Shown piece after piece: positions 31,256-58,258 of a stretch of DNA of 64,000 bases; position 1 is the first letter of the stretch, and each line of letters starts with the position of its first letter. The position numbers and the translations under genes were made by a program. The notes under the pieces are model-generated. The model was given only the letters and a program-made list of their open reading frames with translations. It was not told the DNA's origin and searched no databases. This DNA comes from Eledone cirrhosa (Eukaryota): assembly GCA_964016885.1 (NCBI GenBank), contig OZ024752.1:1550001-1614000 (forward strand), written 5' to 3'.

Positions 31256-31979
31256 GAGACGTAAAATAAGAAAATTATAAAATTAACTTACTAAATTTTC
31301 ACTCCAACTAATTAGTTTCTGAAAGGGAATAAACATACTTTCCGAAGAAGCGTACGGAGAAGCCTTTCGTCATCAGGGAAGTCTATTCTCAGCTAAGTTT
31401 CCAGGCAATACGTGGACACAGGGAACTTATACAAAAATAATTCAGTGGATGGAGATAGGCAAAGCGTGGACTAAATTCCAAGCCATTGAGAAAATCACTG
31501 CCTACTGCGTCGGTGGCAAATTCAAAAGAATCAATCATGTGACATCGAGGTCAATCAATGGAGAGTGGTTTTTTAAGAAGACAGCAGCCGGACTGTTACT
31601 ACAGTAGCAGTTTTGGCCAATTTTTGCTCGAGAAATAATTTGGAGATAATTATAAAGAATTAATATATCTAGTAACATACATATACACAGATGCATACTT
31701 ATGCTAGCAAACATATAGGTTTTGTCTTAGTAACTATGTGGTTCAATGCATGGGGATGCAGAACAATAATATGAGTGACGTAACATAAGAAAATTATAAA
31801 ATTAACTTACTTACTAAAATTTCACTCCATTTTAGTAAGTAAGTTAATTTTATAATTTTCTTATCTTACGTCACTCATATTATTGTTCTGCATCCCCATG
31901 CATTGAACCACAAAGTTACTAAGACAAAACCTATATGTTTGCTAGCATAAGTATGCATCTGTGTATATATATGTTACTA
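31256..31979 (-). mobile_element. ~520-bp terminally redundant element plus inverted arm, in (TA)n
   Basis: 31256-31306 is repeated at ~31775-31829; hairpin ~31670-31979; CTGATGA on - strand at 31370-31376; same family as 57572-58258. Confidence 0.82.
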
Positions 31980-32662
31980 TATATATATATATATATATAT
32001 ATATATATATATATATATATATATATATATATATATATAATTGAATAAACAAGAGAGATGAACAGTAATATAAACATACATGTGTTCGAATCGTAAGGAC
32101 TAGGTTAGCTAGGGTAAAAAAATACTAACTACAGCAATATGGTTTGTCAGACTTAATTTTAAGTTAAATTAAGAAAAATAACAGACCTATATCGGGAAAA
32201 CGCCTGGTAACAACTAGTCAGTTTTGAAAACTGTTTCGCAACATCTTATTAAGTGAAGTCAACATGTTTCTCTGCTCCTCACTAGTTGTTGAGAAATTAG
32301 CGATCCTTCCACTTCTAAAAATATTAGAGGACTGAATTGTGTGCGATATGAAATAGCGCACCCGCTTGTCTCGAAATCTCGTGCCACAAAAAATAGCAGC
32401 CTGGTTAACGAGTCATTAAAATTAGATCCACATGATGGAGCCGATAAATATATAGTGAGTTAGAAACTCAGAGTTGTCTCTTACAATTTAATTGTAAGAG
32501 ACTATATATATACATATATAACTATATATATGTATATATATATATATATATATATATATATATATATATATATATATATATATATATATATATATATATA
32601 TACATATATATAGTCCCCAAGTATAACTATATTTATATATATATATATATATATATATATAT

Positions 32663-33534
32663 ACAATTAAGTTAAAAAATGTACATCCATATATGTATAC
32701 TGAAATACTAGTATGCATATGAATACACACACGTATACATATGTAGATGTACCAAGTCTTTCACTGGTTACTTTACTGTGAGTATCCAGCTATTCTGTAT
32801 GTAAACACACAGACAAACCGGTTTTTAGAGTCATACTGGTTTTTGAGGAAACACCTTTCCTCTATTCTCCAGAAAGCCAGACAAGGAATATTGAACTAGT
32901 TTCGTTGTTGTTACAACTCATCAGCAATATTTACCTATCTACCGGCCTTTCTGGAGAATCGTAAAAGCACATATCGTTATATGCTTTTTCTATGAAAATT
33001 AGTAGTGGGTTAATTAAGTGAGTTACAAACGAAACGAAATTTAATTTCGTTTCGTTATTTGTTTTTATCGTCTCCGTTGAACCGGTACATACTCACACTC
33101 TATGCAAATTAGTCTGCCCACTACTAATTTTCATAGAAAAAGCATATAACGATATGTGCTTTTACGATTCTCCAGAAAGGCCGGTAGATAGGTAAATATT
33201 GCTGATGAGTTGTAACAACAACGAAACTAGTTCAATATTCTTTGTCTGGCTTTCTGGAGAATAGAGGAAAGGTGTTTCCTCAAAAACCAGTATGACTCTA
33301 AAAACCGGTTTGTCTGTGTGTTTACATACAGAATAGCTGGATACTCACAGTAAAGTAACCAGTGAAAGACTTGGTACATCTACATATGTATACGTGTGTG
33401 TATTCATATGCATACTAGTATTTCAGTATACATATATGGATGTACATTTTTTAACTTAATTGTTTAAGCGTCAGTCATACAAAAGTGAGTTACAAACGAA
33501 ACGAAATTTAATTTCGTTTCGTTATTTGTTTTTA
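32663..33534 (+). mobile_element. 467-bp terminally redundant hammerhead element with a 347-bp 5' inverted arm, in (TA)n
   Basis: Arms 32663-33009 / 33117-33463 almost identical; 33016-33067 repeated at 33483-33534. Confidence 0.88.
33195..33239 (+). ncRNA. Intact minimal type I hammerhead ribozyme motif (mirror on - strand at 32887-32931)
   Basis: aatattg-CTGATGA-gttg(taacaa)caac-GAAA-ctag-TT-caatatt: 7-bp stem I, 4-bp stem II, palindromic stem III. Confidence 0.9.
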
Positions 33535-55649: not shown

Positions 55650-56160
55650 CAGTTGGTGCTACTGGTAACATGTATTCCAGTACAACCTGTCCCATGGTCG
55701 GGTCGTTGGTGACTAAACTGGCAACCCCACCAAGGTTTCTTGGTGAGGAGGGTGACTTTGGACATCCTGCAGGACTAAAAACAAAACCTGTCAAAGAGCA
55801 AAGAAGCTCTTAAGAGTCAATGGCCATCCAAAATCACCGGGAGAGATGACCCCTTAGCCTTTGTCAAGGCAGAATTCTAGGAGAAGGAAAACTCTGATAT
55901 AACACCTGCAACCCTGATGGTATCCAATGATGTTGACTTGTTATTCTTTTTGGTAAATATCATCTTGGTTAAGAGAGTGGGACTGGCTTTGTGCAGTGCC
56001 TTTGCTCACTATGAAAGCTTCAGGGCACAGGCATTGCTTTATATCTGGAGATCTTTCTGCACTTGTCGTCACATGGTACCATGGGCCCAGCACTATGTGT
56101 CAATAATTGTCACAAGTGTAGTGTTTGTACCAGAGTTTTCAAGTCGCTGGCTGAACTAAA
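55650..56160. repeat. Interspersed repeat homologous to 20275-20790
   Basis: Shared sequence blocks; TA-flanked. Confidence 0.6.
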
Positions 56161-57571
56161 AAGTCACACTCGTTCAGCGCATCGGTAGGGGTTCTCCTAC
56201 ATGGATATAAAGTAGTGGCCGTACTCGAAAACGAGTTGGCAGCCACCATATATATATATATATGTATGTATACATATATATATATATATTTATATATGCA
56301 TGTATACATATATATATATATATATATATATATATATACAAACCTGTGGAATTAGCAACACACATTTACATCATCAATGTTTACACAGCTTCTAGTGAAC
56401 TATTCGTTGTTCGATAAAGGTTTTGCCCAATAAAACTGCACGAATATTGCCTGAGGTAGGACGGCAACGCCTAAATGCTTTTTAAAAACTTATTTCATCT
56501 ACTTTCTGGTATGATTTGAAATCTATTATATAACATAATTTTTATATATAATATATCGCAGTAGTGACATTTGCAATGATCATATTTGTAATTGTATTTA
56601 GTAAACCATGTTGTTAGTTATATTAGAAAATCAATATCCATTTTACACCATTTTAATTAGCAGAGTAAATCTGCATTAACTCCATTCAACAAAAGTGATA
56701 TTAATTAAATTACTTCGAAAGTGAAGTGATTCACTACGTTACAAATAGCTAATCTCCGGTTAGATTGATACTGATGTATCAATTCATATGTCCGTGGGCT
56801 TCGTGCTTAAAGATGGAACCAATTATAAATTAAGCAATTTATTAATGATTGTCTGTTCATTAATTGTTATTTGTCGTAGAATTGGAAGTTAGTGGAATGA
56901 AAAAGTCTTCGCTTAAGTATGTGAACTATCATATTATCTGAACTATAGTAATTCGTTGGTAGCAAAACGACATAAAAAATAAATATCTAAACATATATCA
57001 GCTGTTTCGATGTGGTACCTCCTTAGAAACACATATCTTATTCTTATGGCTACCCATCCATTAAATTACGTATAATGTATTATAATATTGGTGTATAAAA
57101 TATCATATACGATATATCTCTGTGCTAAATAAAACAGTGATTACAGATCACGATTGGTTTATAGGGTGACCTGGATGGTATAGGATTAATTAGTGATCAT
57201 CTCCCTATGCTTTAAGTAACCCCACTACGCAACTGCTACTAACAATTAATCGAAGATGGTCACGTTCACAATATATTCAAATGAACATTTCAAAATTAAG
57301 TTTCATACGCAAAAAACATAAATGATTTACCTTATTCCTGTTAGTATGCAAAAAGTATGAATATCGGGGATGAAGGATGAATGTCAAAAGCGATGAGTTA
57401 AAAATTCTCACTGCTTATAATTATAATTGTGATCAAGATCACACTTTGAAATGTCCCTAGCGTATGTTCATATATCGCCCCTACTATTAACGACGCTATA
57501 TTAGCTATATTGCTATATATATATATATATATATATATATATATATATATATATATATATATATATATATA

Positions 57572-58258
57572 TATAAAGAATTAGTATATCTACTAACATA
57601 TATATACAGATGCATACCTATGCTAGCAAATATATAGGTTTTGTCTTAGTAACTTTGTGGTTCAATGCATGGGGATGCAGAACAATAATATGAAAGACGT
57701 AAAATAAGAACATTATAAAAGTTATAAAAATTAACTTACTTCCTAAATTTTCACTCCAACTAATTAGTTTCTGAAAGGGAATAAACATAGTTTCCGACGA
57801 AACGTACTGAGAAGCCTTTCGTCATCAGGGAAGTCTATTCTCAGCTAAGTTTCCAGGCAATGCGTGGACACAGGGAACTTATACACAAATAATTCAGTGG
57901 ATGGAAAAAAGCAAAGCGTGGACTAAGTTCCAAGCCATTGAAAAAATCACTGCCTACTGCGTCGGTGGCAAATTCAAGGCAAATTCAAAAGAATCAATCA
58001 CGTGACATCGAGGTTAATCAGTGAGGAGTGTTTTGTTAAGAAGACAGCAGCCGAACCGTTACTATGAACTATAGTAGCAGTTTTGGCCAATTTTTGCTCG
58101 ACAAAATAATTTGGAGATAATTATAAAGAATTAGTATATCTACTAACATATATATACAGATGCATACCTATGCCAGCAAATATATAGGTTTTGTCTTAGT
58201 AACTTTGCGGTTCAATGCATGGGGATGCAGAACAATAATATGAAAGACGTAAAATAAG
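57572..58258 (-). mobile_element. 550-bp-period terminally redundant element (family of 31256-31979, different permutation)
   Basis: 57572-57708 is repeated at 58122-58258; CTGATGA on - strand at 57822-57828. Confidence 0.85.

What the first reader, a model, noticed from the sequence alone, without database searches (positions are those of the whole stretch)
31256..58258. Same element present in two different circular permutations
The copy at 31256-31829 has its redundancy at the gacgta...cactcca block (period ~520). The copy at 57572-58258 has its redundancy at tataaagaatt...aaaataag (period 550, with small internal duplications). Different start and end phases of one cyclic sequence are what reverse transcription of a circular or multimeric RNA would give.
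Basis: partly seen in the sequence, partly recalled or inferred. Interest (0 to 1): 0.72.

Follow-up and report, generated by a model that had tools for sequence, protein, structure and literature searches.

The report
Hammerhead retroelement with two fixed ends
The two copies belong to a family of thousands of 530-base non-coding repeats with a predicted self-cutting RNA motif, and they differ because the family ends at two fixed points rather than at scattered ones, the footprint likely left by a Penelope-type jumping-gene enzyme; a circular RNA template is possible but unproven.

Summary
Both redundancies are real (periods about 520 and 550). The family is large: 7,110 exact hits to one end motif. 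Phases are not dispersed. In a position-ordered sample, 99 of 117 outer 3' ends fall at two sites, unit position 530 (copy A's main arm) and 120 (copy B), mostly joined to (TA)n. In all 56 two-armed insertions with both ends at these sites, one arm uses each site. This is the Penelope 'tail/no tail' signature, and the neighbouring coding Penelope family shows it too. The element is a non-autonomous, retrozyme-type Penelope passenger, not the pLTR of either coding family checked. A circular template is about even odds. For: seamless crossings of the cut site, uniform haplotype within an insertion, and 2.4-fold faster termination after one unit length. Against: long arrays also grow at DNA level, and the circle itself was not observed. 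The scan has already reported this architecture, and probably this family, elsewhere in this genome.

The parts
31225..31254 (.). (TA)n tract joined to the 3' end of copy A's main arm (ATAT shared with the unit)
31255..31829 (-). Copy A main arm: unit 473-530 then 1-530; ends at the 'no tail' site (530); 5' end coincides with the predicted ribozyme cut site
31300..31383 (-). Predicted type I hammerhead ribozyme in copy A; predicted cut between 31306 and 31305 after GUU
31830..31986 (+). Copy A inverted second arm: unit 482-530 then 1-107, running into (TA)n 13 nt short of the usual 120 site
31978..32039 (.). (TA)n tract at the 3' end of the inverted arm
57514..57575 (.). (TA)31 tract joined to the 3' end of copy B (TATA shared with the unit)
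57572..58259 (-). Copy B, single arm: unit 514-530, 1-530, 1-120; ends at the 'tail' site (120)
57752..57835 (-). Predicted type I hammerhead ribozyme in copy B; predicted cut between 57758 and 57757
58260..59001 (-). Remnant of an unrelated Penelope-like element (GIY-YIG end, identified by motifs recalled from knowledge; no Pfam hit), cut at its C-terminal LN motif where copy B's 5' end is joined with about 2 nt of microhomology

Best explanation
A 530-bp non-coding tandem unit with a predicted type I hammerhead ribozyme, present in thousands of copies in (TA)n tracts, was likely pasted in by the reverse transcriptase-endonuclease of a Penelope-like element, which would prime DNA synthesis from both ends of a cut at two fixed internal sites 120 nt apart. 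Shown: the two fixed 3' ends, their strict one-of-each pairing in two-armed insertions, scattered 5' ends, over-unit arms and the covarying ribozyme fold. Copy A's main arm is the 'no tail' end and copy B the 'tail' end. Inferred: target-primed reverse transcription in trans by a PLE protein, probably a dimer, with the two cDNAs joined head to head. Least certain (about 0.5): the template is a ribozyme-made monomer circle, copied for a little over one lap, rather than an uncleaved linear multimer.
For: 3' ends: 99 of 117 outer 3' ends in the position-ordered sample lie at 526-4 or 113-125, about 4% of the unit; 100 of 117 are joined to (TA)n. Pairing: of 80 unique two-armed insertions, 56 have both ends at these sites, and all 56 are 120+530 (36 of 36 in the end-motif sample). 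The offset between the two 5' ends is scattered from 7 to 527 in 35 pairs, so the arms are not a fold-back. Both arms share a haplotype: 24 mismatches in 579 polymorphic-site comparisons, 273 expected at random. Hammerhead: 94.7% of cells paired, 12 two-sided changes, 0 of 500 shuffles reach this, slid controls 32-51%. The neighbouring coding PLE family has the same footprint: a hammerhead, then a short end (11 of 19 loci) or an end about 60 nt longer (7 of 19) at (CT)n(TA)n (counted by eye). Literature: two internal RT start sites define the PLE tail, and both strands are extended (PMC11167929); tail at only one end (PMC8557442, PMC3846280). For a circle: termination rises from 2.46 to 5.85 per kb after 530 nt (70 events in 28,422 nt versus 34 in 5,810; p=7e-5), equally in young and old halves (ratios 2.64 and 2.37). 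No upstream/downstream polarity of variants (249 versus 263). About 2 one-off insertions in 233 crossings of the cut site. One array has four units differing by 0-1 base. The circular monomer folds at z=-3.7 against 40 shuffles.
Against: The autonomous partner was not found: no homology with two PLE families (39 loci), and 20 short-spacer ribozyme hits all look like deletion variants of the unit itself (judged from the matched letters). Rfam lists no hammerhead match. The fold has a C-A mismatch at the base of stem II, a 41-nt loop and a GUU site, and it is not the minimum-energy fold (z=0.77). Against the circle: a 15-unit array is a mosaic of shared variants between non-adjacent units, so long arrays also arise at DNA level. 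5' ends are enriched at 474-500, just downstream of the cut site (19 versus 6.7 expected; 8 of 17 second-pass 120-arms versus 2 of 22 first-pass; weaker at 4 of 11 versus 3 of 42 in the end-motif sample). Copy A's main arm starts exactly at the cut site. These fit 5'-cleaved linear templates. Parts of one insertion differ by 3.6-3.8%, no less than from the nearest other insertion (2.8-3.1%, a minimum over many). 18 of 117 outer 3' ends lie off the two sites.
Confidence: 0.8

Rival explanations
1. Same PLE-driven, two-site priming, but the template is a linear multimeric transcript of genomic tandem arrays, uncleaved or partly cleaved by the ribozyme; no circle is involved.
For: Long arrays exist and evolve like satellites (15 units, 60 shared minor variants). 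5' ends are enriched just downstream of the cut site, and copy A's arm starts at it. In vitro, unprocessed RNA is the main substrate of a PLE (PMC11167929).
Against: There is no hard 5' barrier: 7 of 11 120-arms that reach 677 nt run past 709 nt, and 11 of 13 530-arms that reach 561 nt run past 593 nt. The rise in termination tracks distance from each arm's own start in both end classes. No fixed upstream/downstream unit variants.
Confidence: 0.35
2. The template is the doubly cleaved linear monomer, and the RT jumps end to end across the cut site to make over-unit copies.
For: A +G right at the cut site marks one subfamily (34 of 233 crossings), and about 2 one-off insertions lie there.
Against: The +G is inherited: 9 multi-crossing loci carry it at every crossing, and 3 more carry it at one crossing with a same-length variant at the other. 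New scars are about 1% of crossings. First-pass arms rarely stop at the cut site (3 of 42).
Confidence: 0.1
3. All copies are truncations of the fixed tandem pLTR of one autonomous PLE.
For: Copy B abuts the 3' end of a PLE ORF on the same strand, and the architecture is that of PLEs.
Against: That junction is unique: none of the other 39 best copies of this PLE continues into the unit, and the 19 fetched have their own 3' region and ribozyme. Among the element loci then held, only 3 others had any hit to the two PLE protein fragments, none adjoining an arm. Arrays run to 4 and 15 units without an ORF.
Confidence: 0.05
4. A satellite spread by DNA recombination alone, with ends set by microhomology to TA tracts.
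For: Both end sites share 4 nt with (TA)n, and DNA-level array growth is shown.
Against: The longest internal TA run (unit about 81-97) is hardly used as a 3' end. Recombination does not explain strict 120+530 pairing, 3'/5' polarity, or covariation of the ribozyme.
Confidence: 0.02

Closest known systems
Metazoan non-LTR retrozymes (Cervera and de la Pena 2020, PMC7229834, parts 2-4 of 6 read; Li, Clavereau and Pollet 2026, 10.64898/2026.07.22.740005, parts 1-3 of 5 read)
   Same: Non-coding tandem unit with a type I hammerhead, low GC, monomers to multimers, thousands of copies, co-occurs with PLEs. A mismatch at the base of helix II is described for the axolotl motif HHR_Amex2. Reverse transcription of a circle into tandem cDNA by a PLE is their proposal.
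   Different: 530 nt is above the 170-400 nt of the invertebrate circles, though within the 51-972 bp of the vertebrate survey. The stem II loop is long. Circular RNA was not observed here. The parts read do not describe two-armed insertions, fixed paired ends or (TA)n targeting for retrozymes.
EN+ Penelope-like elements and their 'tail' (Frangieh et al. 2024, PMC11167929, parts 1-2 of 4 read; Craig et al. 2021, PMC8557442, 12 passages; Arkhipova et al. 2013, PMC3846280, 11 passages)
   Same: Partial tandems, an inverted 5'-truncated arm, a tail on one end only, two internal RT start sites downstream of the hammerhead, AT-rich or (TA)n targets, microhomology at 5' junctions.
   Different: No ORF. 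The tail is 120 nt rather than 30-40 nt. The starts share 4 nt with the target, whereas PAc starts at non-homologous sites. One-of-each pairing holds in 56 of 56, whereas PAc in vitro showed no strand difference in start site.
Non-autonomous Chlamys PLEs such as MRC1 (PMC8557442, passage)
   Same: Non-coding, multicopy head-to-tail insertions, microsatellite targets.
   Different: Those generally resemble an autonomous family at the 3' end and mostly lack hammerheads; here a hammerhead is present and no partner was found.

Membership tests
Non-LTR retrozyme | Short non-coding unit in head-to-tail tandem copies | tested here: met
   530-bp consensus from 38 monomers; arrays up to 15 full units; no ORF of 150 aa or more lies within either copy
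Non-LTR retrozyme | Type I hammerhead motif in each unit | tested here: met
   Core positions 95-100% conserved in 205 sequences; stems I-III 93-96% paired with two-sided changes in stem II; not detected by Rfam
Non-LTR retrozyme | Self-cleavage of the RNA | not testable with these tools
   Needs in vitro transcription; only 1 of 9 predicted Xenopus dimers cleaved in the 2026 preprint
Non-LTR retrozyme | Expression as a circular monomer | tested here: inconclusive
   No RNA holder listed; only indirect genomic signs
Non-LTR retrozyme | No LTR, PBS or PPT features | not tested
   No tRNA primer-binding search was run; the ends join (TA)n directly
Penelope-like element, non-autonomous | Fixed 3' ends, 5' truncation, partial tandems and an inverted 5' arm | tested here: met
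   53 of 109 insertions are two-armed head-to-head, 47 single-armed
Penelope-like element, non-autonomous | Tail at one end only | tested here: met
   56 of 56 canonical pairs are 120+530; the tail is 120 nt, longer than the published 30-40 nt
Penelope-like element, non-autonomous | Sequence homology to the pLTR of an autonomous PLE | tested here: inconclusive
   None with the two families checked, 39 loci; other PLE families in the genome were not surveyed
Penelope-like element, autonomous | RT plus GIY-YIG ORF between pLTRs | tested here: not met
   No ORF in the unit; the ORF junction of copy B is a one-off

The most novel reading that the evidence does not exclude
Each insertion is the fossil of one Penelope RT dimer copying a single ribozyme-made RNA circle from both ends of a break in (TA)n, one active site obliged to start at each of two fixed positions. 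Synthesis begins with telomerase-like reiteration (variable (CT)n added wherever the template reads CTCT) and falters after one lap, where strand displacement would begin. This would be quantitative genomic evidence for rolling-circle retrozyme mobilisation and a rule for how the PLE tail arises.
Probability: 0.4. Interest if true: 0.65.

Novelty: new member of a known kind. Interest (0 to 1): 0.38.

Why it matters
What remains useful is mechanistic. Thousands of short copies give statistics that long PLEs do not: an obligatory one-of-each use of two priming sites (56 of 56), a 120-nt tail, a change in termination at one unit length, and added (CT)n at priming. These bear on two open questions, how PLE tandem/inverted insertions form and whether retrozyme circles are the real transposition template, and each is testable in an existing in vitro PLE system. 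The scan has already reported the same architecture in several families of this genome, which limits what this window adds.

Tried and rejected
RNA evidence: no RNA holder listed. The three runs are contigs of unrecorded kind and showed only presence of the family; neither bears on expression. Rfam: no match at gathering score in the window; at E up to 10 on copy A, no hammerhead family among 31 hits, mostly hairpin miRNA models on the palindrome or TA tracts. Pfam found nothing for the GIY-YIG and RT fragments. The first self-BLAST was swamped by microsatellites and was redone masked. The top-score loci are biased to full-length copies and were used for the consensus and the ribozyme and scar surveys, not for end statistics. 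Fold-back origin of the inverted arm: rejected, 5' offsets scattered. Copy B as the pLTR of its neighbour: rejected. A sharp pile of 5' ends at the cut site: not seen (2 versus 1.2 expected at 472-476; 6 versus 2.7 at 470-480). The argument that only a circle can regenerate long arrays: dropped after the 15-unit mosaic array. Loss of direct repeats after insertion as the cause of the termination rise: not supported by a rough age split. Partner searches by ribozyme pattern and RT protein found none. Paper searches found no report of strict end pairing or of a one-lap effect; I did not read supplements, which may bear on this. Look-ups of earlier findings by sequence and near this place were empty.

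Full report
Observation. Both redundancies exist. Copy A (31255-31829) repeats its first 54-58 nt at a distance of 520-523; copy B repeats 137 nt at a distance of 550 with 98.5% identity; A and B align at 87.7% over 570 nt. The window lies in a 3.0-Gb assembly. Earlier notes call it octopus-type; I did not test that. A consensus from 38 full monomers is 530 bp. I number it on the minus strand of the window copies, the strand that carries the ribozyme motif.

Family. Exact-pattern counts give 771 hits for a 28-mer in the ribozyme, 7,110 for the motif at unit position 530 and 3,205 for the motif at 120; reversed controls gave 0. These are motif hits, not insertions. All loci sampled for end statistics come from contig C1 in positional order: the 100 listed hits (89 loci, 81 unique insertions), the first 30 hits each, and 48 further stretches, 45 of them centred on listed terminal matches.

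In 109 unique insertions, 162 outer 3' ends fall at 530 (78), at 113-125 (64), at 95-108 (3) or elsewhere (17). In the 81 insertions not chosen by their ends the figures are 60, 39, 3 and 15 of 117, and 100 of the 117 join (TA)n. Outer 5' ends are scattered and join (TA)n in 23 of 52. So the phases are not dispersed: A's main arm and B represent the two modal ends. Of 80 unique two-armed insertions, 56 have both ends at the two sites, and all 56 pair one 120 with one 530; the other 24 have at least one end elsewhere (approximate de-duplication). Independent choice would give about half like pairs. The offset between the two 5' ends is scattered in 35 pairs, which rules out fold-back and points to two separate cDNAs. 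The arms share a haplotype: 24 mismatches in 579 comparisons at polymorphic sites in 45 insertions, 273 expected.

Ribozyme. Each unit holds CUGAUGA, a six-pair stem II closed by a C-A mismatch, GAAA, a three-pair stem III with a palindromic AAUU loop, GUU and a five-pair stem I. On 46 diverse sequences 94.7% of cells pair, with 12 two-sided changes at 2 pairs of stem II; 0 of 500 shuffles reach this, and slid controls give 32-51% (cells are not independent events). Rfam does not detect it and it is not the minimum-energy fold, so activity is a prediction.

Relation to Penelope-like elements. B's 5' end abuts a GIY-YIG-type ORF end at 58260-59001 (motif assignment from my knowledge, no Pfam hit). 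None of the other 39 best copies of that family continues into the unit. The 19 fetched end in their own 3' region with a minimal hammerhead, then stop either about 38 nt (11 loci) or about 99 nt (7 loci) past the predicted cut, at (TA)n or (CT)n(TA)n; 1 is truncated (by eye). A coding PLE in this genome thus leaves the same two-end footprint. A second PLE family with many 777-aa open frames also shows no homology to the unit. The partner is unknown. The published PLE tail is a 30-40 nt extension at one end (PMC8557442 and PMC3846280, passages), explained by two internal RT start sites, with both target strands extended and a dimer predicted (PMC11167929, parts 1-2 of 4).

Circle or linear multimer. 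For a circle: among 109 arms with canonical ends in the end-motif sample (79 insertions), 35 exceed one unit. Termination is 2.46 per kb up to 530 nt and 5.85 per kb beyond, in both end classes (p=7e-5), with ratios of 2.64 and 2.37 in the younger and older halves of 137 insertions (the age proxy is rough). That is what a need for strand displacement after one lap would give (inference). Tandem neighbours agree at 1,032 of 1,103 polymorphic comparisons, and variants show no upstream/downstream polarity. Of 233 crossings of the cut site, 41 carry one extra base; 34 are an inherited subfamily variant and about 2 look new. One array has four units that differ by 0-1 base yet lie 2.8% from the nearest other insertion.

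Against a circle: a 15-unit array is a mosaic with 60 variants shared among mostly non-adjacent units, so arrays also grow and homogenise as DNA. 5' ends are enriched at 474-500 (19 versus 6.7), mainly on the second pass, and copy A's arm starts at the cut site itself. A similar rise at 391-430 suggests that pausing at the folded ribozyme could explain part of this. Parts of one insertion are not more alike than nearest outside neighbours. No RNA data were available. I put the circle at about 0.5.

Priming detail. In the subfamily whose template reads CTCT at the 120 site, 9 ends carry a longer, variable (CT)n before (TA)n, while read-through copies keep the short form. This suggests reiterative copying at initiation (inference). 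Slippage at retroelement 3' ends is known in general (recalled).

Comparison and verdict. The element fits metazoan non-LTR retrozymes (PMC7229834, parts 2-4 of 6), which a 2026 preprint derives from PLE pLTRs (10.64898/2026.07.22.740005, parts 1-3 of 5). Cleavage and circular RNA are untested here. Five paper searches found no account of strict end pairing; supplements were not read. Earlier notes of this scan describe a 530-bp family of this kind and two fixed paired ends in other families of the same genome. My end counts were made before I read them; the scar test was prompted by one of them. New member of a known kind; interest 0.38.

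Noticed in passing
window 74-495, 8840-9429, 22261-22713, 30899-31224, 32664-33532: Five other repeats next to (TA)n carry type I hammerhead-like motifs with short palindromic stem III loops (motif starts at 265/393, 9174, 22604, 31120, 32929/33197). Four are palindromes, and at least two (74-495, 22261-22713) have an unpaired extension on one side only.
   Followed up: partly
window 23496-24309: 316-bp unit, 1.9 tandem copies plus an inverted arm between (TA)n tracts, with about 50 nt extra on one side; same architecture, but no hit in my hammerhead scan.
   Followed up: no
window about 8725-8780 (between two TA tracts): A short insert of about 54 nt matches by eye the 3' tail of the neighbouring PLE family (L121-L139), as a tail-only insertion.
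   Followed up: no
L266:990-8808 (G000:C1:94665990-94673808): 15 full units of the element in tandem, 5-6% apart, with near-identical non-adjacent pairs (units 7/10 differ by 1 base, 6/9 and 8/14 by 8): satellite-like growth.
   Followed up: yes
L112:3099-5155 (G000:C1:289725898-289727954): Four tandem units differing by 0-1 base, between (TA)n tracts, with 4 private shared variants.
   Followed up: partly
L143, L147, L148, L150, L163, L165, L168, L255, L258: Variable (CT)n between the 120-type end and (TA)n in a subfamily whose template reads CTCT; the same (CT)n(TA)n junctions occur in the coding PLE family.
   Followed up: partly
L269-L287 and the other hits; window 38031-38570: A young PLE family with many 777-aa open frames (RT plus C-terminal GIY-YIG-like end), 76-78% identical to the window's RT fragment; a possible source of trans-acting protein, with no homology to the unit.
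   Followed up: partly
window 3173-7505: Broken ORFs ending in a PIF1 helicase domain (PF21530, E=8e-17), likely a Helitron remnant (inference).
   Followed up: no
window 51173-53848: ORF fragments that resemble a non-LTR retrotransposon (endonuclease-like and post-RT region; recalled resemblance, no informative Pfam hit).
   Followed up: no
unit position 404-406 (L097, L105, L145, L184, L191, L234): Several independent arms of different subfamilies have their 5' end at the first bases of the ribozyme core, suggesting an RT pause at the folded motif.
   Followed up: partly
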